A stretch of 9,854 nucleotides of DNA, taken from a virus. Lineage: Duplodnaviria > Heunggongvirae > Uroviricota > Caudoviricetes. The notes under the pieces were generated by a model. The model saw only the letters and a program-made list of their open reading frames with translations, was not told the DNA's origin and did no database searches. The stretch lies in the IMG/VR virus record IMGVR_UViG_2877973648_000003. One strand, given 5' to 3'. Made by a program: the position numbers and the translations under genes. Positions 1 through 9,854 of the stretch are shown here, piece after piece; positions within the stretch are counted from its first letter, which is position 1, and the number at the start of each line of letters is the position of its first letter.

Positions 1-477
1 TTATTCAAGCAGGCTACGCAACATCCAGGCAGTTTTCTCATGTAACTGGATACGTTGTGTAAGCAGATCTGCTGTGGCTTCATCATTCGCATTATTAACG
101 AGCGGGAACAGGGAGCGTGCAGTTTTAACCACGGTCTCCTGGCCCTGGACAAGATTTTCAATCATGTTTTTTGCTGCCGGAATATCCTTATCTTCATTAA
201 CCGCTGTTAAACGTGAAAATTCATGATATGTGCCGGGCGCGAAGCATCCGAGCGAGCGTATACGTTCAGCGATATCATCAACGGCAGTGGCCAGCTCATT
301 GTATTGATTTTCAAACATTAAATGTAAGCTGTTAAACATGGGGCCAGTTACATTCCAGTGATAGTAATGTGTTTTTATATACAGGGTATAGGTGTCAGCA
401 AGAAGCCGGGACAGGCCGTCTGCAATCTCCACCCGGGATGATTCAGCAATACCAATATCAATGATTTGTTTACTCAT
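1..477 (-). CDS. Dps-family (ferritin-like DNA-protection) protein, 158 aa, apparently host-encoded
   Basis: Complete minus-strand ORF (ATG complement at 475-477, TAA complement at 1-3). The translation has the ferritin-like Dps signature region (HW-N-V-G...F...LH...E) and Dps-like length. SD-like AAGAGG lies upstream of the start. It is not identical to E. coli Dps as I recall it. Confidence 0.8.
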
Positions 478-551
478 AACTACCTCTTACACGGTTTCAG
501 TGGAATATACGATATGCGATTATTCTTTCCGGTCTGAGCAAAACACGCCTC

Positions 552-566
552 AAATTTTTATAATAA
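552..566. other. attL core (lambda-type attachment site, host/prophage junction)
   Basis: AAATTTTTATAATAA followed by GTTGGCATTATAAAAAAGCATTGCTTATCAATTTGTTGCAACGAACAGG matches the recalled lambda attP core and P' arm (lambda core GCTTTTTTATACTAA). The left three bases differ, as expected for a host arm. One C-to-A difference lies in the overlap region (TTTATAA versus TTTATAC). Confidence 0.8.
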
Positions 567-574
567 GTTGGCAT

Positions 575-645
575 TATAAAAAAGCATTGCTTATCAATTT
601 GTTGCAACGAACAGGTCACTATCAGTCAAAATAAAATCATTATTT
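575..645. promoter_or_regulatory. attL P' arm: IHF-type site and Int arm-type binding sites (P'1-P'3)
   Basis: CAGGTCACTAT (612-622), CAGTCAAAAT (623-632) and AAAATCATTAT (about 634-645) fit the Int arm-type consensus. The upstream TTATCAATTTGTTGCAACGAACAGG resembles the lambda H' IHF site. The int stop lies 74 bp from the core, as in lambda. Confidence 0.75.
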
Positions 646-1710
646 GATTTCAATTTTGTCCCACTCCCTGCCTCTGTCATCACGATACTGTGATGCCATG
701 GTGTCCGACTTATGCCCGAGAAGATGTTGAGCAAACTTATCGCTTATCTGCTTCTCATAGAGTCTTGCAGACAAACTGCGCAACTCGTGAAAGGTAGGCG
801 GATCCCCTTCGAAGGAAAGACCTGATGCTTTTCGTGCGCGCATAAAATACCTTGATACTGTGCCGGATGAAAGCGGTTCGCGACGAGTAGATGCAATTAT
901 GGTTTCTCCGCCAAGAATCTCTTTGCATTTATCAAGTGTTTCCTTCATTGATATTCCGAGAGCATCAACATGCAATACTGTTGGGATGGCAATTTTTACG
1001 CCTGTTTTGCTTTGCTCGACATAAAGATATCCATCTACGATATCAGACCACTTCATTTCGCATAAATCACCAACTCGTTGCCCGGTAACAACAGCCAGTT
1101 CCATTGCAAGTCTGAGCCAACATGGTGATGATTCTGCTGCTTGATAAATTTTCAGGTATTCGTCAGCCGTAAGTCTTGATCTCCTTACCTCTGATTTTGC
1201 TGCGCGAGTGGCAGCGACAGGGTTTGTTGTTATATGGCCTTCAGCTATTGCCTCTCGGAATGCATCGCTCAGTGTTGATCTGATTAACTTGGCTGACGCC
1301 GCCTTGCCCTCGTCTATGTATCCATTGAGCATTGCCGCAATTTCTTTTGTGGTGATGTCTTCAAGTGGAGCATCAGGCAGACCCCTCCTTATTGCTTTAA
1401 TTTTGCTCATGTAATTTATGAGTGTCTTCTGCTTGATTCCTCTGCTGGCCAGGATTTTTTCGTAGCGATCAAGCCATGAATGTAACGTAACGGAATTATC
1501 ACTGTTGATTCTCGCTGTCAGAGGCTTGTGTTTGTGTCCTGAAAATAACTCAATGTTGGCCTGTATAGCTTCAGTGATTGCGATTCGCCTGTCTCTGCCT
1601 AATCCAAACTCTTTACCCGTCCTTGGGTCCCTGTAGCAGTAATATCCATTGTTTCTTATATAAAGGTTAGGGGGTAAATCCCGGCGCTCATGACTTCGCC
1701 TTCTTCCCAT
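640..1710 (-). CDS. int: Tyrosine integrase, lambda Int (356 aa)
   Basis: The translation is near-identical to lambda Int as I recall it (MGRRRSHERRDLPPNLYIRNNGYYCYRDPRTGKEF...REWDKIEIK) and has the catalytic R/K/H/R/H/Y residues including the LLGH and Y motif near the C-terminus. It overlaps xis as in lambda and is adjacent to the att site. Confidence 0.97.
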   Translation of the reverse strand: MGRRRSHERRDLPPNLYIRNNGYYCYRDPRTGKEFGLGRDRRIAITEAIQANIELFSGHKHKPLTARINSDNSVTLHSWLDRYEKILASRGIKQKTLINYMSKIKAIRRGLPDAPLEDITTKEIAAMLNGYIDEGKAASAKLIRSTLSDAFREAIAEGHITTNPVAATRAAKSEVRRSRLTADEYLKIYQAAESSPCWLRLAMELAVVTGQRVGDLCEMKWSDIVDGYLYVEQSKTGVKIAIPTVLHVDALGISMKETLDKCKEILGGETIIASTRREPLSSGTVSRYFMRARKASGLSFEGDPPTFHELRSLSARLYEKQISDKFAQHLLGHKSDTMASQYRDDRGREWDKIEIK

Positions 1711-1906
1711 TTCTGATCCTCTTCAAAAGGCTACCTGTTACTGGTCGATTTAAGTCAACCTTTACCGCTGATTCGTGGAACAGATACTCTCTTCCATCCT
1801 TAACCGGAGGAGGGAATATCCTGCACTCGCGTACCCATCGACGAACTGTTTCAAGGCTTCTTGGGCGTCGCTGGCGTGCGTTCCACTCCTGAAGTGTCAA
1901 GTACAT
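1688..1906 (-). CDS. xis: Excisionase Xis (72 aa)
   Basis: MYLTLQEWNARQRRPRSLETVRRWVRECRIFPPPVKDGREYLFHESAVKVDLNRPVTGSLLKRIRNGKKAKS matches lambda Xis in sequence and length. Its 3' end overlaps the int start. Confidence 0.95.
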   Translation of the reverse strand: MYLTLQEWNARQRRPRSLETVRRWVRECRIFPPPVKDGREYLFHESAVKVDLNRPVTGSLLKRIRNGKKAKS

Positions 1907-1930
1907 CGCAAAGTCTCCGCAATTACACGC

Positions 1931-1953
1931 AAGAAAAAACCGCCATCAGGCGG
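1931..1953 (-). terminator. Putative intrinsic terminator (5-bp GC stem CCGCC/GGCGG, 4-nt loop, then six Us on the minus strand)
   Basis: On the minus strand: GCCGCCUGAUGGCGG followed by UUUUUUCUU. The stop codon of the 55-codon ORF sits in the loop. The stem is short, so confidence is moderate. Confidence 0.4.
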
Positions 1954-2113
1954 CTTGGTGTTCTTTCAGTTCTTCAATTCGAATATTGGTTACGTCTGCA
2001 TGTGCTATCTGCGCCCATATCATCCAGTGGTTATAACAGTCGTTGATGTTCTCTGCTTCGATAACCCTGTTGAATGGCTCTCCATTCCATTCACCTGTGA
2101 CTCGGAAGTGCAT
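1946..2113 (-). CDS. Small hypothetical protein (55 aa), positional counterpart of the lambda small ORF next to xis
   Basis: Found by my own translation; it is below the size cutoff of the ORF track. MHFRVTGEWNGEPFNRVIEAENINDCYNHWMIWAQIAHADVTNIRIEELKEHQAA. Same size and position as the lambda 55-codon ORF right of xis. Confidence 0.6.
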   Translation of the reverse strand: MHFRVTGEWNGEPFNRVIEAENINDCYNHWMIWAQIAHADVTNIRIEELKEHQAA

Positions 2114-2124
2114 TTATCATCTCC

Positions 2125-2151
2125 ATAAAACAAAACTCGCCGTAGCGAGTT
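2125..2151 (-). terminator. Putative intrinsic terminator downstream of the 142-aa gene
   Basis: On the minus strand: AACUCGC-UACG-GCGAGUU (7-bp stem) followed by UUGUUUUAU. It lies between the stop of the 142-aa ORF (2197) and the start of the 55-codon ORF (2113). Confidence 0.5.
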
Positions 2152-2196
2152 CAGATATAATTTCCACCAAAGGCAGTAGTTGCTTGATGCTAAGAA

Positions 2197-2625
2197 TTAT
2201 TCAATATCTATTCCTGTAATCTCTTTTATCTTTTTCCTTGCAAAGCCTTTTGCTAGTGATTTTGAAACACTCATAAGTGTACTAATTCCCTCATCCTTAA
2301 AGTTTGTTTTTATAGCTTGCCAGACATCCTTTTGACGTAAGTCAGCAATAAAATCATGCCCTCTTGCTGTCAACCTCAGTGGTACTTCGATCCAACTATA
2401 TCCAACACCTTCCCCTAACGCTTTGGACAATATATGACCGAACCCAGGTTTTCCATCAACCCTGACTATTAATTCGTAGTCACATAATAATCGCATATGG
2501 AAAATAAAATCTTGGTCATATCTATTAAAGCCATTATCCTCTAGTTCACTAAGCATCGTGTCAGGGCCACGAGTTTTTTCGAATGCGATAAGTAGATCTT
2601 TTAGATATTGCTGGTCTAATTTCAT
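2197..2625 (-). CDS. Hypothetical protein, 142 aa, AT-rich accessory (moron-like) gene of unknown function
   Basis: Clean ORF with a strong SD (GGAGGCG) 5-7 nt upstream of the ATG. Base composition is visibly more AT-rich than the flanking lambda-like genes (by eye, not computed). No signal peptide or TM segment is evident. I do not recognise the family with confidence. Confidence 0.6.
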   Translation of the reverse strand: MKLDQQYLKDLLIAFEKTRGPDTMLSELEDNGFNRYDQDFIFHMRLLCDYELIVRVDGKPGFGHILSKALGEGVGYSWIEVPLRLTARGHDFIADLRQKDVWQAIKTNFKDEGISTLMSVSKSLAKGFARKKIKEITGIDIE

Positions 2626-2635
2626 TGCCGCCTCC

Positions 2636-2647
2636 GTGACATGTCAC
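2636..2647. promoter_or_regulatory. Perfect 12-bp palindrome GTGACATGTCAC in the 28-bp gap between the 112-aa and 142-aa genes
   Basis: Read directly from the sequence: the motif equals its own reverse complement. It sits just upstream of the SD of the 142-aa gene. Confidence 0.35.
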
Positions 2648-2653
2648 AGAGAT

Positions 2654-2992
2654 TTATATCATTAATTTTGTTTCGTGCCAGCCTTTGGTCACCCAGCATT
2701 GTGAGTCACCATTACACGGGCATGAATTAACAGGAACTCTCTCGCCGCACTTACCGCACCGTTTTCTGCTGATCGATTTTATACGCCAGCGCACACGTGC
2801 ATCATCCTGGCGGCTCAGTAACGCGATGTACTCACCAAACTCGCAAGGCGCACGCCTGAAGCGACGCGTGGCACAGTTACGCTCCAGCATTTCAATTTCC
2901 TGAGCATCAAGTACAAGCTCCAGCTTACGCATACCGGATGATGCTTGCTTGGCTCTCTGATCGGCTTTGTGCTCTGTTGCTGATTTAGCCAT
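2654..2992 (-). CDS. Small basic Cys-rich protein (112 aa), probable zinc-ribbon; occupies the position of lambda ea8.5
   Basis: ORF with an SD-like AGGAAAA upstream. The C-terminal part has CGKCG...CPC...C spacing typical of a zinc ribbon. Base composition resembles the lambda-like backbone. Any identity with Ea8.5 is positional inference only. Confidence 0.55.
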   Translation of the reverse strand: MAKSATEHKADQRAKQASSGMRKLELVLDAQEIEMLERNCATRRFRRAPCEFGEYIALLSRQDDARVRWRIKSISRKRCGKCGERVPVNSCPCNGDSQCWVTKGWHETKLMI

Positions 2993-3188
2993 TCTGCTTT
3001 TCCTGCATCAGGAGAAAGACAATCATGGCGGCGCGGATACTTCCGGTATCTTTATACGCGATATTCCCCTTCAATGGCACATACAAGAAGAGAGCCATCA
3101 ACAGGAGTGATTGAGGAATCGACAACCAGCAACGCTTAATTATCTATAGTGTCGTATTTGCTTCATAAAATATGGCGAATAACACAAA

Positions 3189-3220
3189 GCCCGCAGCAGC
3201 TCATTGTGCGGGCTTTTCTT
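3189..3220 (-). terminator. Putative bidirectional intrinsic terminator (GCCCGCA...TGCGGGC, 7-bp stem) downstream of the secreted-protein gene
   Basis: Stem 3189-3195 pairs with 3207-3213 around an 11-nt loop. It is followed by TTTTCTT on the plus strand and UUUGUGUU on the minus strand, about 70 nt past the stop at 3286. Confidence 0.55.
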
Positions 3221-3285
3221 ATACCTACTTCCTAGAGATAATTCTATGGAGGCATTAAATCAATACTGTCATTGGTAATATCATA

Positions 3286-3900
3286 TTATCTAAAAGTCTT
3301 TCCACTTTTAACATCTAGGTATATTCTGTTCGACAACGTCATTCCTCCGCAATATGTGAAATAGATGTTTTCACCCTTATTGCTTGATGCCATCCACCCT
3401 CCGATTTCCTTAAAATCGCTTTCCGTGCAGACCCCTTCATTTATTAACTTCCTAGCTGCCGAAGAAAACTCTTTTTTGTATATACGGTAGTCATCAGATC
3501 CTTTGATTAAAGTATCATCTCCGCTCGCATTTTCAGCAGGATCTGATGGCCTTTCACTGCTAAGATCACTAAATTTAACCCATTCTGAAAACTTGCCATT
3601 AACGATTCCATTTTTTCTTGTGCAGGATTTATTACCTTCTTTAATATATTCGCTTTCCCCTCCAACACATGAGGCTGAATATGGCTCAGTTATACGAACC
3701 CATTCACCTTTTTTTTCTAGAAAATCTACGCCTTCCCTGAAAAATAGTTTCCCAGCCACTCCACATTTACTTGAAGGGCAGGTATGTCTTTCCGTTCGAT
3801 CAACAACAACCCATAGTTTTGATTCATTTTTTGCCATTGCCGATGGTATTTGAGATGAGACAATTAACGTAAGCCCTAAAATTAGTATTGATTTTTTCAT
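3286..3900 (-). CDS. Secreted or periplasmic Cys-rich protein, 204 aa, unknown function (AT-rich moron)
   Basis: N-terminus MKKSILILGLTLIVSSQIPSAMA-KNE is a classical Sec signal peptide with an AXA cleavage motif. The mature part is hydrophilic with about 8 Cys. SD AAGGAAA lies 6-7 nt upstream of the ATG. The gene is AT-rich and has its own terminator. It does not match Bor, Lom or Cor as I recall them. Confidence 0.7.
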   Translation of the reverse strand: MKKSILILGLTLIVSSQIPSAMAKNESKLWVVVDRTERHTCPSSKCGVAGKLFFREGVDFLEKKGEWVRITEPYSASCVGGESEYIKEGNKSCTRKNGIVNGKFSEWVKFSDLSSERPSDPAENASGDDTLIKGSDDYRIYKKEFSSAARKLINEGVCTESDFKEIGGWMASSNKGENIYFTYCGGMTLSNRIYLDVKSGKTFR

Positions 3901-4198
3901 TGTAATTTCCTTTTACTTTTTACAAAGCGTTTAATCATGGCTGATTATCTCTAAGTGTAGTAACAGCCTTGTGCGAAACATGTTACCAAATCGCCATTTC
4001 AGTGTATCCGCAGTTAGGCTGCCACTTCAAGGATTCCTAATTACATGGTACGTAAGCGTAAAATCCCGTTGGTTGGCGGGTAATAACTCTGATCAAATCT
4101 CCCTTGTCTTTTGCTCTTACGTATGCAGCTCTTGTGTATTCAACCCAGGCCTCCAGTTCAGCAATACGCTTACTTCCATCCGAGATAACACCTTCTAC

Positions 4199-4450
4199 TC
4201 ACGCTGCTCGTTGAGTTTTGATTTTTGCTGTCTCCAGCTCAACACGCAGTTTCCCCACCGTTAGCGCAATATCCTCGTTCTCCTGGTCGCGGCGTTTGAT
4301 GTATTGCTGGTTTCTTTCCCGTTCATCCAGCAGTGTCAGCACAATCGATGGTGTTACCAGCTCATGGAAAAGGTCCGCGTCAAATCCCCAGTTGTCAGGC
4401 ATTGCCTGCTCTGCCGCTTCACGCAGTGCCTGAGAGTGAATTACGCTCAC
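4199..4450 (-). CDS. ea22: Ea22-like protein, N-terminal segment (83 aa) ending at an in-frame TGA; the reading frame stays open for 53 further codons (4040-4198) to a TAG at 4037-4039
   Basis: MSVIHSQALREAAEQAMPDNWGFDADLFHELVTPSIVLTLLDERERNQQYIKRRDQENEDIALTVGKLRVELETAKIKTQRAA resembles the lambda Ea22 N-terminus as I recall it. After the TGA, the same frame reads VEGVISDGSKRIAELEAWVEYTRAAYVRAKDKGDLIRVITRQPTGFYAYVPCN. Its 3' end overlaps the start of the TraR-like gene. Confidence 0.55.
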   Translation of the reverse strand: MSVIHSQALREAAEQAMPDNWGFDADLFHELVTPSIVLTLLDERERNQQYIKRRDQENEDIALTVGKLRVELETAKIKTQRAA

Positions 4451-4668
4451 TTCGAACCTCTCTGTTTACTGATAAGCTCCAGATCTTCCTGGCAACTTGC
4501 ACAAGTCCGACAACCCTGAACGGCCAGGCGTCTTAGCTCATCTATGGGATCGCCACACTCACAACAATGAGTGGCAGATACAGCCTGGTGGTTCAGGCGG
4601 CGCATTTTTATTGCTGTGTTGCGCTGTAATTCTTCAATTTCTGATGCTGAATCAATGATGTCTGCCAT
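4447..4668 (-). CDS. DksA/TraR-family C4 zinc-finger protein (73 aa), lambda Orf73/TraR-like
   Basis: 73 aa with paired Cys-x2-Cys motifs (CCEC ... CRTCASC) and the size typical of TraR-family proteins. It sits where lambdoid phages carry their TraR homologue in the early-left operon. Confidence 0.75.
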   Translation of the reverse strand: MADIIDSASEIEELQRNTAIKMRRLNHQAVSATHCCECGDPIDELRRLAVQGCRTCASCQEDLELISKQRGSK

Positions 4669-4766
4669 CTTCCATTAATCCCTGAATTGTTGGTTAATAC
4701 GCTTGGGGGTAAATGCGAGCAATAAAAAAGGAGCCTGTAGCTCCCTGATAATTTTGCTTTTCATGT

Positions 4767-5048
4767 TCATCGTTCCTTAAAGACGCCGTTTAACATGCCG
4801 ATTGCCAGGCTTAAATGAGTCGGTGTGAATCCCATCAGCGTTACCGTTTCGCGGTGCTTCTTCAGTACGCTACGGCAAATGTCATCGACGTTTTTATCCG
4901 GAAACTGCTGTCTGGCTTTTTTGATTTCAGAATTAGCCTGACGGGCAATGCTGCGAAGGGCGTTTTCTTGCTGAGGTGTCATTGAACAAGCCCCATGTCG
5001 GCAAGCATAAGCACACAGAATATGAAGCCCGCTGCCAGAAAAATGCAT
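4767..5048 (-). CDS. Small early-left-operon protein (lambda orf61-like); start ambiguous (93 aa from 5048, or 71 aa from the ATG at 4982)
   Basis: ORF in the expected position and orientation. The 5048 start lies 10 nt after the upstream gene stop and has no obvious SD. The internal ATG at 4982 overlaps the TGA of a 5-codon upstream mini-ORF (ATGA), a translational-coupling arrangement. Confidence 0.5.
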   Translation of the reverse strand: MHFSGSGLHILCAYACRHGACSMTPQQENALRSIARQANSEIKKARQQFPDKNVDDICRSVLKKHRETVTLMGFTPTHLSLAIGMLNGVFKER

Positions 5049-5058
5049 TCAGTGGTTG

Positions 5059-5250
5059 TCATACCTGGTCTCTCTCATCTGCTTCTGCTTTCGCCACCAT
5101 CATTTCCAGCTTTTGTGAAAGGGATGCGGCTAACGTATGAAATTCTTCGTCTGTTTCTACTGGTATTGGCACAAACCTGACTCCAATTTGAGCGAGGCTA
5201 TGTGCCATCTCGATACACGTTCTTAACTCAACAGGAGATGCTTTGTGCAT
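5059..5250 (-). CDS. Small early-left-operon protein, 63 aa (lambda orf63-like)
   Basis: 63-aa ORF with a G-rich SD (GGGGGG) upstream. Size and position match lambda orf63. Confidence 0.6.
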   Translation of the reverse strand: MHKASPVELRTCIEMAHSLAQIGVRFVPIPVETDEEFHTLAASLSQKLEMMVAKAEADERDQV

Positions 5251-5368
5251 ACAGCCCCCCGTTTATTATTTATCTCCTCAGCCAGCCGCTGTGCTTTCAG
5301 GGGATTTCTGATAACAGAAAGGCCGGGAAATACCCAGCCTCGCTTTGTAACGGAGTAGACGAAAGTGA

Positions 5369-5593
5369 TCGCACCTACCGGAAACAACGCGCGGCGCTCT
5401 TTACTCGTTCGTCTATAACGTGGGCGCAGGCAATTTCAGAACATCTACTCTTCTTCGCAAAATAAACCAGGGCGATATCAAGGGCGCATGTGACCAGCTA
5501 CGTCGCTGGGCATACGCTGGCGGTAAGCAATGGAAAGGCCTGATGACTCGTCGTGAGATTGAGCGTGAGGTCTGTTTGTGGGGGCAACAATGA
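5369..5593 (+). pseudogene. 3' remnant of an endolysin gene (T4-type/P21-type lysozyme R); N-terminal catalytic part absent and frameshifted upstream
   Basis: In-frame translation ...[71 protein letters not shown] matches the C-terminus of E. coli cryptic-prophage lysozymes as I recall them. There is no start codon. An in-frame TGA at 5366-5368 and a shifted frame lie upstream. The stop overlaps the Rz start (ATGA). Confidence 0.75.
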
Positions 5594-6054
5594 GCAGGGT
5601 AACCGCGATTATCTCCGCTCTGGTTATCTGCATCATCGTCTGCCTGTCATGGGCTGTTAATCATTACCGTGATAACGCCATTACCTACAAAGCCCAGCGC
5701 GACAAAAATGCCAGAGAACTGAAGCTGGCGAACGCGGCAATTACTGACATGCAGATGCGTCAGCGTGATGTTGCTGCGCTCGATGCAAAATACACGAAGG
5801 AGTTAGCTGATGCGAAAGCTGAAAATGATGCTCTGCGTGATGATGTTGCCGCTGGTCGTCGTCGGTTGCACATCAAAGCAGTCTGTCAGTCAGTGCGTGA
5901 AGCCACCACCGCCTCCGGCGTGGATAATGCAGCCTCCCCCCGACTGGCAGACACCGCTGAACGGGATTATTTCACCCTCCGGGAACGACTGGTAATGATG
6001 CAGGCCCAACTTGAAGGTGCTCAGCAATACATAACCGAGCAGTGTTTAAAGTAA
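5590..6054 (+). CDS. Rz: Spanin, inner-membrane subunit Rz (154 aa)
   Basis: [60 protein letters not shown]... matches lambda Rz as I recall it, with an N-terminal TM segment and coiled-coil region. The ATG overlaps the endolysin stop. The ORF track's longer 5578 start is an in-frame GTG upstream. Confidence 0.9.
5810..5995 (+). CDS. Rz1: Spanin, outer-membrane lipoprotein subunit Rz1 (61 aa), embedded in the +1 frame of Rz
   Basis: [24 protein letters not shown]... has a lipobox (VVGC) and a proline-rich mature part. It is fully nested inside Rz in another frame, as in lambda. Confidence 0.85.
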
Positions 6055-6191
6055 AATCTTAACTACAATATGATTCATTTTGATGATTGTTTCATAAGGA
6101 ACAGTGAAGTAAGATCTAAGAGGAGTTAAATTTTATACAGTATAATCATAATATTGCAGCAAGGTGGTTATAATTGAAAGAATATTTAGAT

Positions 6192-7649
6192 ATGAATACA
6201 TCTCATGTAAGAGTTGTTACTCATATGTGTGGGTTCCTGGTTTGGCTCTATAGTCTTTCAATGTTGCCACCAATGGTTGTAGCATTGTTTTATAAAGAAA
6301 AAAGCCTGTTCGTTTTCTTTATAACTTTCGTTATATTTTTTTGCATTGGTGGCGGAGCGTGGTATACAACTAAGAAATCTGGCATTCAATTACGTACCCG
6401 TGATGGGTTTATTATAATTGTAATGTTTTGGATTTTGTTTTCTGTTATTAGTGCATTCCCTTTATGGATTGACTCAGAACTTAATTTAACGTTCATTGAT
6501 GCTCTGTTTGAAGGGGTTTCTGGAATAACAACAACAGGAGCAACTGTAATTGATGATGTTAGTTCATTACCTCGGGCATATTTGTACTATCGGTCACAGT
6601 TAAATTTTATAGGTGGTTTAGGAGTTATTGTTCTGGCGGTTGCTGTATTGCCATTATTGGGTATTGGTGGTACAAAGCTTTATCAGTCAGAAATGCCGGG
6701 GCCATTTAAGGATGACAAACTCACTCCCCGCCTGGCCGATACGTCACGGACACTGTGGATAACTTATTCTTTATTAGGTATTGCTTGTATTGTCTGTTAT
6801 AGACTTGCAGGAATGCCTTTGTTTGATGCTATTTGTCACGGGATTTCCACAGTTTCGCTTGGTGGTTTCTCAACTCATAGCGAGAGTATCGGATATTTTA
6901 ATAACTATTTGGTTGAGCTGGTGGCTGGTTCTTTTTCCCTGCTATCGGCTTTCAACTTCACTCTTTGGTATATTGTTATTAGCAGGAAAACGATAAAACC
7001 TTTAATCAGAGATATTGAACTTCGTTTCTTTCTGTTAATAGCCTTAGGGGTGATCATTGTTACCTCTTTCCAGGTCTGGCATATAGGTATGTATGACTTG
7101 CATGGAAGTTTTATTCATTCGTTTTTTCTTGCCAGCTCCATGCTCACTGATAATGGTTTAGCTACGCAGGATTATGCAAACTGGCCCACGCACACGATAG
7201 TGTTTTTGCTGTCGTCAAGTTTCTTTGGGGGATGTATAGGTTCAACTTGTGGTGGAATTAAGTCACTTCGATTTCTTATACTTTTCAAACAAAGCAAACA
7301 CGAGATAAATCAGCTTTCTCATCCCAGAGCGTTGTTGAGTGTAAATGTAGGAGGGAAGATAGTTACAGATCGTGTAATGAGGTCTGTATGGAGTTTCTTT
7401 TTTCTTTATACTCTCTTCACGGTGTTTTTTATACTGGTGTTAAATGGTATGGGATATGATTTTCTTACATCATTTGCAACAGTGGCTGCATGTATTAATA
7501 ATATGGGATTAGGTTTTGGGGCTACTGCATCGTCATTCGGAGTGCTTAATGACATTGCAAAATATTTAATGTGCATAGCTATGATTCTTGGTCGCCTTGA
7601 AATTTATCCTGTTATTATATTGTTTTCAGGTTTTTTTTGGCGCTCCTAA
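6192..7649 (+). CDS. trkG: TrkH/TrkG-family potassium uptake protein (485 aa from the ATG at 6192; the ORF track extends to a TTG at 6174)
   Basis: Polytopic membrane protein with the repeated GxGG-type selectivity-filter segments (FEGVSGITTTGATV, STVSLGGFSTHSES, GSTCGGIKSLR, ACINNMGLGFGATASS). It is near-identical to E. coli TrkG as I recall it. The gene is AT-rich and lies immediately downstream of Rz/Rz1, the same arrangement as in the Rac prophage. Confidence 0.9.
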   Translation: MNTSHVRVVTHMCGFLVWLYSLSMLPPMVVALFYKEKSLFVFFITFVIFFCIGGGAWYTTKKSGIQLRTRDGFIIIVMFWILFSVISAFPLWIDSELNLTFIDALFEGVSGITTTGATVIDDVSSLPRAYLYYRSQLNFIGGLGVIVLAVAVLPLLGIGGTKLYQSEMPGPFKDDKLTPRLADTSRTLWITYSLLGIACIVCYRLAGMPLFDAICHGISTVSLGGFSTHSESIGYFNNYLVELVAGSFSLLSAFNFTLWYIVISRKTIKPLIRDIELRFFLLIALGVIIVTSFQVWHIGMYDLHGSFIHSFFLASSMLTDNGLATQDYANWPTHTIVFLLSSSFFGGCIGSTCGGIKSLRFLILFKQSKHEINQLSHPRALLSVNVGGKIVTDRVMRSVWSFFFLYTLFTVFFILVLNGMGYDFLTSFATVAACINNMGLGFGATASSFGVLNDIAKYLMCIAMILGRLEIYPVIILFSGFFWRS

Positions 7650-7734
7650 TATATGGCTGATTTATAATTGTGAGTTTAATATTATATTGACTCACTCATT
7701 GATCCAATACCTAACTTTACCAGCAACACCTCCG

Positions 7735-7770
7735 CCCCCAGTAGCACTGGCTGCTGGGGTGCGTTTTATT
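7735..7770 (+). terminator. Putative intrinsic terminator downstream of trkG
   Basis: CCCCAG...CTGGGG stem (7736-7741 pairing with 7754-7759) followed by TGCGTTTTATT. The loop is long at 12 nt, so confidence is modest. Confidence 0.35.
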
Positions 7771-7786
7771 CATAAAGCAAGGCTGT

Positions 7787-8218
7787 ATGAGCGAGAAATT
7801 AAAGATAGTCTATCGCCCATTACAAGAATTGTCACCGTATGCGCACAACGCCAGGACGCACAGTACTGAGCAGGTGGCACAACTGGTAGAAAGTATTAAG
7901 CAATTCGGCTGGACTAATCCGGTGCTGATTGACGAAAAGGGCGAAATTATTGCGGGTCACGGTCGTGTTATGGCGGCTGAAATGCTCAAAATGGATTCTG
8001 TTCCGGTCATTGTTCTGTCTGGCCTGACGGATGAGCAGAAAAAGGCGTACCGCCTGGCAGATAATCGCCTACCGATGAATGCTGGCTGGGATGAAGATCT
8101 GTTGCGGATGGAGCTGTCGGACCTAATCAATGCTGATTTTGATGTCTCCCTGACAGGCTTCGGCCCGACAGAAATTGATGAACTGTTGACGGATGTTTTG
8201 CCCGGTATCGGGCCTTAA
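7787..8218 (+). CDS. ParB-like nuclease-domain protein (143 aa), probably a C-terminally truncated fragment
   Basis: N-terminal ParB/Srx-type domain (YRPLQELSPYAHNARTHS...IIAGHGRVMAA...YRLADN). Its TAA stop lies 3 bp from the convergent tfa stop with no terminator between them. Prophage ParB-like proteins are usually larger. Confidence 0.65.
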   Translation: MSEKLKIVYRPLQELSPYAHNARTHSTEQVAQLVESIKQFGWTNPVLIDEKGEIIAGHGRVMAAEMLKMDSVPVIVLSGLTDEQKKAYRLADNRLPMNAGWDEDLLRMELSDLINADFDVSLTGFGPTEIDELLTDVLPGIGP

Positions 8219-8221
8219 TTT

Positions 8222-8749
8222 TTACTCTGGTTTTTGTGGCCATTCAGGATTTGCCGTATCCACACGGCTGACCAGAACACTGTAGCGTTCCCATGCTTCC
8301 AGTCGTGTGCGTTCCTCGTCTGTTGCCATATTCAGCCTGACAGCGCGTTCCAGCGGTTGGATGACTGATTCAGCTTCGGAAAGCAATGCGGCCTTTTGTG
8401 ATTCGGCCTGTTGTTGTTGCTCGTCTGCCGTATAAATCCGTTTAACCACAGCTCCGTCCCTAAACATCCACTTACTGGAATCATCAGCGCAGCGGTTGGC
8501 TGTAATATCTGGAACCTCAACGACGCTATAACCTTCAGGGTTAAGCGTGGAGGCATCTTTGGTGATGGCGACAATAATATTATTTGCATCGTAAACAATC
8601 TTTATTGTGTCTGGCTGAAAGTTTTTCACTTCCTCATACCAGTTTTTTCCGTCTTCGGACCATAACCAGATAACATCAAAATTCTTTGTTAGCTGATATT
8701 GTTCTTTTGTTTTTGGATTTCCAGACTTAATATTTTTTAAATGCTGCAT
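8222..8749 (-). CDS. tfa: Tail fibre assembly protein Tfa (175 aa)
   Basis: Tfa-family translation. It lies directly downstream of the tail-fibre cassette with a 3-nt gap, the typical stf-tfa arrangement. Confidence 0.85.
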
Positions 8750-8752
8750 AAA

Positions 8753-9715
8753 TTACACCTGTACGACGTTATACCATGTGCCATTGATGTATTTTTGTAT
8801 TGGTCTGAATACTGCCGGATCATCGCCATCAACTGCACCGATAATGCCAAGCCCCGTAATTGCATGACCTGATTTCTCATACATCACGCCTTTTTGCATA
8901 GTCTGAACAACACGTGTACCAAGTCGGACATCTCTCACATAACGTGAGTCAAAATTACCATAATTGCCGGGAATAACTTGCGCACCGCAAAGCCAGTTGC
9001 CATTGTTGTCCATGTACGCCTGACCATCGGTGCCATTGGCTGTCCTTGAGTTATTAATCATGTAGATGCCAAATTGCTTATTCCCCAGTCCACCAATCAT
9101 AAATTTGCGATCAGCGTGGTCCTGACGAAGTAATGCCTGCGCACCATCGGTGGATACCGCATTGCGTCCCAAAATAACATTCTGGTCACGCATATGAATC
9201 CACATGCCGGTACTACTGTTAATTGCAAAACGGTTTGCAAATATATCCCCTGTAACATCAAGACCATGCCCCATGCTTATCCGACCAGTTCTGAGATTAA
9301 GCGTAAAGGGGCGTAGTGGCCCTATATCACCATTTTCTCCCTCATTCTCTCGTGTAGGGATGATATGCAGGCATTCTTCAGAACGACGAAAAATAGCACC
9401 AAAAGATGAATTAAATATCCTCAGTGCATTGACTGTCGATATTTTTACTTCACTGCTGAAAAGGGCTTTAACAAGGACAGACAAAGCATCCCATTTAAGA
9501 GTCATCAGGTCTTTTGTTGTGGTGCTCTGGCGGCTTCTCCATTTGAAATATTCATTGCCGTTGTCGCCTGTTTCAAACCACATGTATGAATCAGTGTCGC
9601 TGTCGGCATTATTTTTAAAACCAATCTTTGCCCAGTCAGTATTTCTAATCCAGGCAAGGATTGAGTCGTTTTCAAAAGTAAGCCCACCGGACAAGGTATC
9701 GCCATTCTTTTGCAC
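8753..9715 (-). CDS. stf: Side tail fibre C-terminal variable cassette (320 codons), without its own N-terminal constant region
   Basis: Tail-fibre-like C-terminal sequence (NGDTLSGGLTFENDS..., Gly/Asn/Thr-rich). The open frame begins at a GTG (9713-9715) only 10 codons after an in-frame TAA that lies inside the crossover site. It is immediately adjacent to the pix-like site and tfa follows. This is the Sv'-U' arrangement of Gin/Pin/Cin invertible segments. Confidence 0.8.
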   Translation of the reverse strand: MQKNGDTLSGGLTFENDSILAWIRNTDWAKIGFKNNADSDTDSYMWFETGDNGNEYFKWRSRQSTTTKDLMTLKWDALSVLVKALFSSEVKISTVNALRIFNSSFGAIFRRSEECLHIIPTRENEGENGDIGPLRPFTLNLRTGRISMGHGLDVTGDIFANRFAINSSTGMWIHMRDQNVILGRNAVSTDGAQALLRQDHADRKFMIGGLGNKQFGIYMINNSRTANGTDGQAYMDNNGNWLCGAQVIPGNYGNFDSRYVRDVRLGTRVVQTMQKGVMYEKSGHAITGLGIIGAVDGDDPAVFRPIQKYINGTWYNVVQV

Positions 9716-9739
9716 GGCGTTCCTGGCCCTGTTTACCGT

Positions 9740-9765
9740 TTCCTGTAAACCGAGGTTTTAGATAA
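9740..9765. other. Gin/Pin/Cin/Hin-family DNA invertase crossover site (gix/pix-like)
   Basis: TTCCTGTAAACCGAGGTTTTAGATAA is a near-exact match to the recalled gix site TTCCTGTAAACCGAGGTTTTGGATAA. It consists of imperfect inverted 12-bp half-sites around a central dinucleotide and lies between the fibre cassette and the invertase start. Confidence 0.75.
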
Positions 9766-9819
9766 TGGCGGTTTCTGGCCTGCATGGCATGATTTGTGCT
9801 TTTGGACGGGAGATTCAGC

Positions 9820-9854
9820 GTGCTGATTGGCTATGTAAGGGTATCAACAAATGA
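9820..9854 (+). CDS. pin: Serine DNA invertase (Pin/Gin family), first 11 codons only; continues beyond the window
   Basis: GTG-CTG-ATT-GGC-TAT-GTA-AGG-GTA-TCA-ACA-AAT translates to (M)LIGYVRVSTN, the conserved N-terminus of Pin/Gin/Hin invertases including the catalytic Ser region. SD GGGAG lies 7 nt upstream. The TGA formed by the last three bases of the window is out of frame. The call rests on very little sequence. Confidence 0.6.
   Translation, partial: MLIGYVRVSTN

What the first reader, a model, noticed from the sequence alone, without database searches (positions are those of the whole stretch)
552..9854. Remnant retains mainly accessory cargo, integration genes and DNA-rearrangement functions while the core phage modules are lost
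Across about 9.3 kb the surviving intact genes are int/xis, small early-left accessory genes (including the TraR-like protein), two AT-rich unknown genes, the spanins, trkG and tfa. Repressor, replication, packaging and virion genes are absent and several genes are fragments. The AT-rich cargo genes alternate with backbone of host-like composition. This pattern fits a domesticated cryptic prophage kept for its cargo. The apparently intact int/xis/attL also makes the element potentially excisable if attR survives.
Basis: inference. Interest (0 to 1): 0.45.

Follow-up and report, generated by a model that had tools for sequence, protein, structure and literature searches.

The report
Plasmid-borne, IS26-cut lambda prophage remnant
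This is the left 9.3 kb of a decayed lambda-type prophage that phage integrase inserted at a look-alike attachment site on a large plasmid; an IS26 insertion later removed its right end, so it can no longer excise and now travels passively between gut bacteria. It is an ordinary kind of element with an instructive history.

Summary
From 552 to the window end there is a prophage remnant with intact int, xis and attL, small early-left genes, Rz/Rz1, trkG and tfa. It has no repressor, replication, packaging or virion-body genes, and several genes are fragments. The context changes the interpretation.

- **Location.** The window is 100% identical to ~300 kb E. coli plasmids and to chromosomal inserts of that plasmid segment.
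- **Left junction.** It is an exact Int-type insertion into a secondary att site (AAATTTTTATAATAA, 552-566) between plasmid dps and paaI genes. Unoccupied copies of the site exist.
- **Right end.** IS26 starts 75 bp past the window end inside a pin invertase gene. No attR was found anywhere, so this copy cannot excise.
- **Origin.** The same remnant, 3 SNPs different and with identical deletion junctions, sits at classical attB-lambda in E. coli chromosomes with both att sites (11.6 kb). It therefore probably decayed there and then moved to a plasmid.
- **Cargo.** The left-arm "cargo" is 99.9% identical and collinear with the deposited complete phage Chlobot. Sister remnants keep different gene subsets. 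This exact remnant occurs in 21 of 5426 E. coli genomes. "Kept for its cargo" is not supported.

The parts
1..477 (-). Dps/ferritin-family gene of the plasmid accessory region. This is flank, not phage DNA.
   Evidence: Pfam Ferritin, E 2e-29. The same gene and flank occur on 187 plasmids, most of which lack the remnant.
552..566 (+). Secondary lambda attachment-site core AAATTTTTATAATAA. It matches the lambda core GCTTTTTTATACTAA at 11 of 15 positions. The overlap is TTTATAA versus TTTATAC. This is the hybrid core of attL.
   Evidence: Unoccupied plasmid sites read ...AAATTTTTATAATAA|CCAGGTAC. The window reads ...AAATTTTTATAATAA|GTTGGCATT. Position 563 carries the plasmid-type base.
567..639 (+). 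P' arm of attL, the region that carries the P'1-P'3 arm-type sites and H' in lambda (site names from the lambda literature, recalled from memory).
   Evidence: All 85 bases after the core that were compared with lambda are identical.
640..1710 (-). Lambda-type integrase, apparently intact.
   Evidence: Pfam Arm-DNA-bind_1 plus Phage_integrase. There are 3 substitutions versus lambda Int (H164P, A245V, I248V). R212, K235, H308, R311, H333 and Y342 are kept.
1688..1906 (-). Excisionase Xis, apparently intact.
   Evidence: Pfam Exc, E 4e-41. One substitution versus lambda Xis, G59S.
1946..2113 (-). Small conserved early-left ORF, equivalent to the lambda 55-aa ORF next to xis.
   Evidence: phrog_676, full length. 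It lies within the 98.9% match to lambda 27727-29333.
2162..4151 (-). Accessory block that replaces lambda ea8.5 and part of ea22. It holds DUF2513 (2197-2625, 36.6% GC), a 112-aa ORF (2654-2992, phrog_536 'transcriptional regulator'), a umuD-like fragment (3055-3132) and a 204-aa ORF (3286-3900, 37.9% GC).
   Evidence: No match to lambda. 99.8% identical to phage Chlobot. Pfam and PHROG hits. No PADLOC hit. Present at >=80% coverage in 130/5426 E. coli genomes.
4151..4450 (-). Ead/Ea22-like fragment. The same sequence occurs in phage Chlobot.
   Evidence: Pfam Ead_Ea22. RefSeq annotates it as frameshifted and partial. It is collinear with Chlobot.
4447..4668 (-). TraR/DksA-type zinc-finger protein.
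   Evidence: Pfam zf-dskA_traR.
4767..5250 (-). Two small early-left ORFs: phrog_303 (4767-4982) and DUF1382 (5059-5250).
   Evidence: They lie within the 96% match to lambda 30094-31325.
5223..5387 (-). DUF1317 gene (lambda orf60a type), N-terminally truncated at deletion junction 1.
   Evidence: The Pfam match covers profile positions 10-60 of 60. Homology to lambda and Chlobot ends at 5379.
5376..5379 (.). Deletion junction 1, with 4-bp microhomology TACC. It joins the region just before exo to the middle of the endolysin gene. The lambda-map equivalents of exo through S and the first half of R are gone.
   Evidence: Three-way comparison of Chlobot, the window and FORC_031. Lambda map.
5375..5593 (+). 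C-terminal fragment of an RrrD-type endolysin.
   Evidence: Pfam Phage_lysozyme profile positions 65-125 of 125 only.
5590..6054 (+). Spanin pair Rz, with Rz1 embedded at 5810-5995. Both are full length.
   Evidence: Pfam Phage_lysis 1-125/126 and Rz1 1-40/41.
6192..7649 (+). trkG potassium-transporter gene, 38% GC.
   Evidence: Pfam TrkH, E 9e-144. Window 5610-8040 is 99.3% identical to the K-12 Rac rz-trkG-ynaK segment.
7787..8218 (+). ParB-N-domain ORF (ynaK-like), C-terminally truncated at junction 2.
   Evidence: It covers phrog_620 positions 3-141 of 217 and PADLOC MTase_II positions 12-145 of 436.
8200..8207 (.). Deletion junction 2, with imperfect 8-bp microhomology. It joins the ParB-like gene to the hairpin between two convergent tfa genes of an invertible tail-fibre segment. 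All packaging, head and tail genes are gone.
   Evidence: Three-way comparison of FORC_031, the window and EC20-4B-2. Gene maps.
8222..8749 (-). Tail-fibre assembly gene. It is the U' copy of the invertible segment.
   Evidence: Pfam Caudo_TAP 2-131/131. Position in EC20-4B-2.
8753..9754 (-). Variable C-terminal tail-fibre cassette (Sv'). It has no start of its own.
   Evidence: Pfam Gp34_trimer. RefSeq annotates it as 'missing N-terminus'. It ends at the crossover site.
9740..9765 (+). Single Gin/Pin-type inversion crossover site, TTCCTGTAAACCGAGGTTTTAGATAA.
   Evidence: One mismatch to the gix consensus, which was supplied from memory. Zero expected by chance. The relative EC20-4B-2 has two such sites in inverted orientation.
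9820..9854 (+). 5' end of a pin-type serine invertase gene. It is cut by IS26 75 bp beyond the window.
   Evidence: Pfam Resolvase on the longer chromosomal version. The IS26 terminal repeat lies at window-equivalent 9929.

Best explanation
Positions 552-9854 are the left 9.3 kb of an 11.6 kb lambda-family prophage remnant, now carried on plasmid DNA.

**History, with shown and inferred steps.**
1. Shown: the progenitor had a Chlobot-like lambda left arm (attP, int, xis and early-left accessory genes). Its late region was of the DLP12/Rac type and carried trkG and an invertible tail-fibre segment.
2. Shown for the junctions, inferred for the place: two internal deletions at short microhomologies removed everything from exo to the middle of the endolysin gene, and everything from a ParB-like gene to the centre of the invertible segment. 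This most likely happened in an E. coli chromosome at attB-lambda.
3. Inferred from exact junction anatomy: the already-decayed element, which still had int, xis, attL and attR, excised as a circle. Int then inserted it into a secondary attachment site between dps and paaI on a large plasmid.
4. Shown: IS26 then removed the right end (most of pin, the diguanylate cyclase gene and attR).

**Present state.** This copy has Int, Xis and attL but no partner site, so it cannot excise. It spreads passively with IS26-bounded plasmid segments among Escherichia, Klebsiella, Enterobacter and Citrobacter. trkG is the only gene here with an obvious host function. Nothing shows that the element is retained for it.
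For: **Context.**
- The window is 100% identical to 303-kb plasmids and to chromosomal inserts of the same segment.
- 14 plasmids from 4 genera carry >=80% of it, on different backbones.

**Secondary-site insertion.**
- Unoccupied sites read ...AAATTTTTATAATAA|CCAGGTAC. The occupied site reads ...AAATTTTTATAATAA|GTTGGCATT, followed by a P' arm 100% identical to lambda.
- 187 plasmids carry the flank, so most are unoccupied.

**Same element at attB-lambda.**
- In strain E2 there are perfect cores 11.64 kb apart.
- It differs from the window at only 3 positions, and both internal junctions are the same.
- At 2 of those 3 positions the chromosomal copy agrees with phage Chlobot, so the plasmid copy is the derived one.

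**Decay in the chromosome.** Sister remnants at the same attB share the right end but have different deletions.

**Donor and target in one cell.** Strains 027_SK3 and ABW_S38 have the remnant in their chromosomes (matching the window from 555, as in E2) and a ~300 kb plasmid with the unoccupied site.

**Recombination proteins.** Int and Xis are nearly identical to lambda's, with the catalytic residues kept.

**Loss of the right end.**
- The IS26 inverted repeat lies at 9929, or at 9970 in AH04.
- Every plasmid copy listed (those that reach the window end) stops matching the chromosomal right end within 126-152 bp.
- The predicted attR junction has 0 hits in genome and metagenome collections.
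Against: - No copy with both secondary-site junctions was found, so the insertion event is reconstructed from attL alone.
- Excision of the decayed element has not been observed. It lacks pL, N and cII, so how int and xis would be expressed is unknown. Int and Xis could instead have come from a co-resident lambda-type phage.
- The attR P arm of the chromosomal copy keeps exact P1 and P2 sites. It is ~11% diverged from lambda near the core, where I recall the Xis and IHF sites lie.
- An Int-catalysed attL x secondary-site exchange that fused plasmid and chromosome, followed by IS26 resolution, would give the same left junction.
- The direction of movement (chromosome to plasmid) rests on parsimony and 2 SNPs.
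Confidence: 0.75

Rival explanations
1. One reading: a chromosomal cryptic prophage that the host has domesticated and keeps because its cargo (trkG, the AT-rich genes, the TraR-like gene) is useful, and that is still excisable.
For: - trkG, Rz/Rz1, tfa, int and xis have intact reading frames.
- The AT-rich genes differ in composition from their neighbours.
- Two of the three chromosomal attB-lambda remnants examined keep trkG.
Against: - This copy is on plasmid DNA and lacks attR.
- The exact remnant is in only 21/5426 E. coli genomes at 99.9-100% identity.
- The left-arm cargo and its 'pseudogenes' are unchanged from the deposited complete phage Chlobot.
- Sister remnants keep different subsets. 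One lacks trkG and one lacks 2640-5375.
- The commonest cargo of the lineage, the dgcX-like gene in 767 genomes, was lost here.
- Retention of the element's ends is expected from internal deletions alone.
Confidence: 0.1
2. An intact phage integrated independently into the plasmid site and into chromosomal attB, and the two copies decayed in parallel.
For: Lambda-type phages can use secondary sites. This is established knowledge of lambda Int, recalled from memory.
Against: - Both internal deletion junctions are identical to the base in plasmid and chromosomal copies.
- The copies differ at 3 of 9300 positions.
- Identical independent microhomology deletions are very unlikely.
Confidence: 0.03
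3. The remnant never excised. Int exchanged the chromosomal attL with the plasmid secondary site and fused plasmid and chromosome. IS26 events then released a plasmid carrying only the left part of the remnant.
For: - This would give exactly the observed dps-core-P' junction and a right end defined by IS26.
- Plasmid segments do integrate into chromosomes in this set.
- Int-only recombination by attL with non-canonical partners has been described in vitro (from memory, not checked here).
Against: - No cointegrate at attB-lambda was found. The AH04 chromosomal copy lies in a tRNA-Phe island, not at attB.
- This reaction is much less efficient than attP x attB.
Confidence: 0.12

Closest known systems
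Phage lambda site-specific recombination module (Int, Xis, attP/attL) and lambda insertion at secondary attachment sites
   Same: - Int is 353/356 identical and Xis 71/72 identical to lambda's.
- The P' arm is 100% identical.
- The junction lies at the edge of the core, and the target's own overlap base is retained, as expected for secondary-site insertion.
   Different: - The inserted DNA is a decayed 11.6 kb remnant, not a phage genome.
- The target is on a natural conjugative plasmid.
- The partner site attR has been deleted by IS26.
Escherichia phage Chlobot (PP925838.1), deposited as a complete 46.5 kb lambda-type genome
   Same: Window 555-5379 is collinear with it and 99.88% identical (6 SNPs), including the AT-rich accessory genes and the Ea22 and umuD fragments.
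   Different: - Chlobot has the full recombination, immunity, replication, lysis and virion modules.
- It has no trkG, and its late region is not the one in the window. Only Rz matches, at 82%.
Rac cryptic prophage of E. coli K-12
   Same: The rz-trkG-ynaK segment (window 5610-8040) is 99.3% identical. Both are defective lambdoid prophages with int/xis, spanin remains, trkG, tail-fibre genes and a pin invertase.
   Different: - Rac has a different integrase and sits in ttcA.
- Rac keeps recET, racR and replication-gene remains.
- Nothing else in the window matches Rac at the blastn threshold used.
dgcX-associated lambdoid prophage remnants at attB-lambda (Richter et al. 2014, PMC4287979)
   Same: The chromosomal parent of this remnant lies at attB-lambda and ends with a diguanylate cyclase gene next to attR, the arrangement that paper describes.
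   Different: - The window's copy is on a plasmid and has lost the cyclase gene.
- I did not compare the cyclase sequence with a DgcX reference.
Gin/Pin/Hin invertible tail-fibre segments (Mu G, P1 C, e14 P)
   Same: It has an Sv'-U' cassette on the opposite strand, a gix-like crossover site and an adjacent serine invertase gene.
   Different: Only one crossover site and half of the segment remain, and the invertase is truncated. No inversion is possible.

Membership tests
Lambda-type Int/Xis/att recombination module | Heterobivalent tyrosine integrase with an arm-binding domain and the catalytic residues R-K-H-R-H-Y | tested here: met
   Pfam Arm-DNA-bind_1 plus Phage_integrase. All six residues are kept, with 3 substitutions versus lambda Int.
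Lambda-type Int/Xis/att recombination module | Excisionase gene overlapping the 5' end of int | tested here: met
   Pfam Exc, E 4e-41. xis 1688-1906 overlaps int 640-1710.
Lambda-type Int/Xis/att recombination module | attL made of a core plus a P' arm with arm-type sites | tested here: met
   The P' arm is 100% identical to lambda. The core matches at 11/15 and is the target's own sequence.
Lambda-type Int/Xis/att recombination module | Partner attR (P arm plus core) in the same replicon, needed for excision | tested here: not met
   - No core within +/-20 kb.
- Every plasmid copy listed stops matching the chromosomal right end within 126-152 bp.
- The predicted attR junction is absent from genome and metagenome collections.
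- IS26 lies at 9929.
Defective (cryptic) lambdoid prophage | Phage-derived genes in phage order, collinear with a known phage | tested here: met
   555-5379 matches Chlobot at 99.88%. 5590-6044 matches lambda Rz at 94%. 5610-8040 matches Rac at 99.3%.
Defective (cryptic) lambdoid prophage | Loss of modules needed for lytic growth (immunity, replication, packaging, virion) | tested here: met
   None is present in the ORF list, Pfam results or RefSeq annotation. The deletion junctions are mapped. No further phage genes lie beyond the window.
Domesticated prophage (retained by selection for host benefit) | Long-term vertical conservation at one locus across a host lineage | tested here: not met
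   The exact remnant occurs in 21/5426 genomes, in at least three kinds of location (plasmids, plasmid-derived chromosomal inserts, attB-lambda), at 99.9-100% identity.
Domesticated prophage (retained by selection for host benefit) | Cargo genes retained preferentially over other genes in independent remnants | tested here: not met
   FORC_031 lacks 2640-5375. EC20-4B-2 lacks trkG. This copy lacks the dgcX-like gene. Only three sister remnants were examined.
Domesticated prophage (retained by selection for host benefit) | Purifying selection on the retained genes (dN/dS below 1) | not testable with these tools
   There are only 3-6 substitutions between the copies and the phage relative.
Gin/Pin-type invertible segment | Two inverted crossover sites flanking the segment | tested here: not met
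   The window has one site, at 9740-9765. The relative EC20-4B-2 has two.
Gin/Pin-type invertible segment | Intact serine invertase | tested here: not met
   111 nt remain before IS26 in the plasmid copy. The chromosomal parent has only 64 codons, covering Resolvase profile positions 2-73 of 145.
Rac prophage | IntR-type integrase and insertion in ttcA | tested here: not met
   No similarity to the Rac int/xis region. Only 5610-8040 matches Rac.

The most novel reading that the evidence does not exclude
An 11.6 kb lambda remnant with no regulatory, replication or virion genes still behaved as a self-contained integrative element. On this reading it excised from attB-lambda and inserted, through its own or a borrowed Int, into a look-alike site on a conjugative plasmid. 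That gave chromosomal prophage cargo such as trkG a route into Klebsiella, Enterobacter and Citrobacter. Cryptic prophages would then be a source of plasmid cargo through site-specific recombination, not only through IS activity.
Probability: 0.6. Interest if true: 0.45.

Novelty: new member of a known kind. Interest (0 to 1): 0.3.

Why it matters
It is a clear natural example of three well-known processes acting in sequence: prophage decay by microhomology deletion, Int-mediated insertion at a secondary attachment site, and IS26 truncation. Together they moved E. coli prophage genes onto conjugative plasmids found in four genera, including an mcr-10 plasmid. It is also a caution for the 'domesticated prophage' reading. 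Intact accessory genes and AT-rich islands in a remnant can be unchanged phage content only a few mutations old, and an intact int/xis/attL says nothing about mobility unless the partner site is checked.

Tried and rejected
1. A search for the lambda core with up to 3 mismatches found only a chance match at 571-585(-) inside the P' arm (0.47 expected by chance). The real core has 4 mismatches. It was identified by aligning occupied and unoccupied sites.
2. I thought the paaI side of the site, 25 kb away and inverted in plasmid NZ_CP081783.1, might carry the missing attR after an IS26 inversion. It is a second, unoccupied dps-paaI copy.
3. I thought the AH04 chromosomal copy at ~849 kb might be a plasmid-chromosome cointegrate at attB-lambda. 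It lies in a tRNA-Phe island next to yqgA/speC, and the coordinate similarity was coincidental.
4. Exact-pattern scans for the predicted attR junction found nothing in genome or metagenome contigs. The attL junction is absent from species-representative genomes. It is present in one metagenome contig, which ends in IS26 like the plasmids.
5. PADLOC found no defence-system match for the unknown ORFs, trkG or the diguanylate cyclase. The ParB-like ORF matches only the N-terminal part of a methyltransferase model.
6. No tRNA is present.
7. Literature searches found no description of this plasmid-borne remnant. They did find the dgcX/attB-lambda paper.

Full report
**1. What is in the window.**
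ORF listing, Pfam, PHROGs and the RefSeq annotation of identical records agree on the content.
- 1-477(-): a Dps/ferritin gene.
- 640-1710(-) and 1688-1906(-): a lambda-type integrase and excisionase.
- 1946-5387(-): a run of small leftward ORFs. These are orf55, DUF2513, a 112-aa ORF, a 204-aa ORF, an Ea22 fragment, a TraR/DksA zinc-finger protein, a phrog_303 ORF, DUF1382 and DUF1317.
- 5375-5593(+): the C-terminal 72 codons of an RrrD-type lysozyme.
- 5590-6054(+): Rz, with Rz1 at 5810-5995.
- 6192-7649(+): trkG.
- 7787-8218(+): a ParB-N-domain ORF.
- 8222-8749(-): tfa.
- 8753-9754(-): a tail-fibre C-terminal cassette.
- 9820-9854(+): the first 35 nt of a serine recombinase gene.

No tRNA is present. 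There is no repressor, replication, terminase, capsid or tail-shaft gene. DUF2513, orf204 and trkG are 36.6-38.0% GC, against 44-53% for the rest.

**2. Where the window comes from.**
- It is 100% identical over its full length to 303-kb E. coli plasmids (for example NZ_CP081783.1), to a 454-kb plasmid, and to chromosomal inserts of the same plasmid segment.
- In PLSDB, 14 plasmids carry at least 80% of it. Their hosts are Escherichia, Klebsiella michiganensis and K. quasipneumoniae, Enterobacter kobei and E. roggenkampii, and Citrobacter freundii.
- The backbones differ: IncA/IncFII, and IncFIB/IncFII (pMCR10_SCLZS19).
- To the right of the window the plasmid continues for 75 bp of recombinase gene. 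Then come the IS26 inverted repeat (window-equivalent 9929), a Tn3 fragment and repA.
- In strain AH04 the IS26 boundary is at 9970 in the other orientation. In E. kobei the match to the chromosomal right end stops at about 9955, and a second IS26 cuts int at 840.

The missing phage modules therefore do not lie just outside the window.

**3. The left junction is a secondary lambda attachment site.**
- From 567 onward the window is 100% identical to the lambda P' arm.
- The 15 bases before it (552-566, AAATTTTTATAATAA) match the lambda core GCTTTTTTATACTAA at 11 positions.
- The flank up to 566 occurs on 187 plasmids, far more than carry the remnant.
- In two of them the sequence continues ...AAATTTTTATAATAA|CCAGGTAC into a PaaI-thioesterase gene.
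- The phage DNA therefore starts exactly at the right edge of the core. The one overlap base that differs from lambda (563, A rather than C) is the target's own.

This is the anatomy expected for Int-mediated insertion at a secondary site. That expectation rests on established knowledge of lambda Int, recalled from memory. An IS-mediated capture would leave an IS at the junction, and none is there.

**4. The same remnant at classical attB-lambda.**
- Five E. coli chromosomes match the window from 555 onward at 99.9-100%.
- In strain E2 the element lies between ybhC and ybhB/bioA. It has perfect cores at both ends, 11,640 bp apart.
- Beyond the window's end, the E2 copy has a 64-codon pin remnant, a tfa fragment, a diguanylate cyclase gene and attR.
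- The attR P arm keeps exact P1 and P2 arm-type sites but is about 11% diverged from lambda nearer the core.
- The window differs from E2 at three positions: 563, 3054 and 3573. At the latter two, E2 agrees with phage Chlobot, so the plasmid copy is the derived one.
- Strains 027_SK3 and ABW_S38 have the remnant in their chromosomes (matching the window from 555, as in E2) and also a ~300-kb plasmid whose dps-paaI site is unoccupied. That is the configuration needed for the jump.

**5. How the remnant formed.**
- Window 555-5379 is collinear with the deposited complete phage Chlobot and 99.88% identical, up to just before exo.
- 555-2161 and 4152-5379 also match lambda at 96-99%. 2162-4151 replaces lambda ea8.5 and part of ea22.
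- 5610-8040 is 99.3% identical to the Rac rz-trkG-ynaK segment.
- Junction 1 (TACC, 5376-5379) joins the 5' end of the DUF1317 gene to the middle of the lysozyme gene.
- Junction 2 (8200-8207) joins the ParB-like gene to the hairpin between the two convergent tfa genes of an invertible tail-fibre segment.
- Sister remnants at the same attB share the right end but have other deletions.
  - FORC_031 keeps the holin, a whole lysozyme gene, trkG and a J fragment, but lacks 2640-5375.
  - EC20-4B-2 keeps Q, the holin, the lysozyme, terminase remains and the complete invertible segment with two gix-like sites, but lacks trkG.
- This variety at one chromosomal locus indicates that decay took place there.
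- Junction 1 occurs in 21 of 5426 E. coli genomes, the same number that carry at least 80% of the window.

**6. Consequences for the interpretation.**

Mobility:
- Int has 3 substitutions with its catalytic residues kept, and Xis has 1.
- There is no second core within 20 kb.
- The plasmid copies that reach the window's right end stop matching the chromosomal right end within 126-152 bp.
- The predicted attR junction is absent from genome and metagenome collections.
- The one metagenome contig with the attL junction ends in IS26.
- The paaI flank found elsewhere on the same plasmid belongs to a second, unoccupied copy of the site.
- This copy is therefore immobilised.

Domestication:
- The left-arm 'cargo' and its fragments are unchanged from a complete phage genome.
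- The left cargo block is in 130 genomes and the exact remnant in 21. The cyclase gene that this copy has lost is in 767.
- That cyclase matches the published arrangement of dgcX at attB-lambda next to lambdoid prophage remains (PMC4287979). I did not compare the sequences.
- Retention of int/xis at one end, and of the tail-fibre, pin and cyclase genes at the other, is what internal deletions give without any selection.
- With 3-6 substitutions available, dN/dS cannot be estimated.

**7. Mechanism and alternatives.**
The best-supported account is decay at attB-lambda, then excision of the decayed element, Int-mediated insertion into the plasmid site, IS26 truncation, and passive spread.
- Shown: the site anatomy, the identity of the junctions, the IS26 boundary and the host range.
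- Inferred: the excision-reinsertion step, its direction, and the source of Int and Xis. The element lacks pL, N and cII.
- A direct attL x secondary-site exchange followed by IS26 resolution would give the same left junction and cannot be excluded. No cointegrate was found. The AH04 copy lies in a tRNA-Phe island, not at attB.
- Parallel decay of two independent insertions is excluded by the identical junctions.

**8. Novelty.**
Each component is known: defective lambdoid prophages, lambda secondary sites, Rac trkG, Pin-type segments and IS26 deletions. I found no paper that describes this plasmid-borne remnant, but the library is incomplete. I rate it a new member of a known kind, of modest interest.

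Noticed in passing
L006 10022-10963 (NZ_CP081783.1 76021-76962); compare window 1-566: The plasmid that matches the window carries a second, unoccupied copy of the dps-paaI secondary att site about 26 kb away in inverted orientation. The dps region is therefore duplicated, and an empty target sits beside the occupied one.
   Followed up: partly
L003 24666-25997 (E2 chromosome, right end of the parent element, outside the window): A sensor-domain diguanylate cyclase gene lies between the tail-fibre/pin remains and attR. It is full length in 767/5426 E. coli genomes. Its position matches that published for dgcX at attB-lambda (PMC4287979). No sequence comparison with a DgcX reference was made.
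   Followed up: partly
L006 18472-24001 (NZ_CP081783.1 84471-91207): The same plasmid carries genes annotated as heat-resistance island genes (hdeD-GI, yfdX1, yfdX2, sHSP20-GI, ftsH) about 35 kb from the window.
   Followed up: no
window 571-585 (-): GCTTTTTTATAATGC inside the P' arm resembles the att core, with 3 mismatches. Lambda has the same bases there, since the P' arm is identical. By the shuffle control it is a chance-level match, and it is not the crossover site.
   Followed up: yes
window 3054 and 3573: These are the only two substitutions that separate the plasmid copy from the E2 chromosomal copy, apart from the att overlap base. 3573 lies in the 204-aa ORF and coincides with different RefSeq protein accessions (WP_000748281 in the window-type copies, WP_000748282 in E2). 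3054 lies next to the umuD-like fragment. The AH04 and E. kobei copies carry the E2 accession.
   Followed up: partly
L015 3247-4871 (E. kobei pMCR10_SCLZS19): In this mcr-10 plasmid the remnant has IS26 on its left side (cutting int at window position 840) and ISEc68 followed by IS26 on its right. The remnant is being eroded and moved as part of an IS26-bounded segment.
   Followed up: partly
L004 1-9150 (Citrobacter plasmid around the empty site); window 1-477: The secondary site lies in a cluster of redox and sulfur-type genes found on many plasmids: Dps, an ArsR/SmtB regulator, an FAD-dependent (CoA-disulfide-type) oxidoreductase, thioredoxin, rhodanese, DUF2703, PaaI thioesterase, NifX-like and DUF134 genes. 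Its function was not examined.
   Followed up: no
window 2654-2992 (-): The 112-aa cysteine-rich ORF (50% GC) sits between the two AT-rich genes. It belongs to phrog_536 ('transcriptional regulator'). A 330-bp part of it recurs at ~91% identity in over a thousand E. coli prophages and in phiV10/TL-2011b-type phages, next to NinX or ASCH genes.
   Followed up: no
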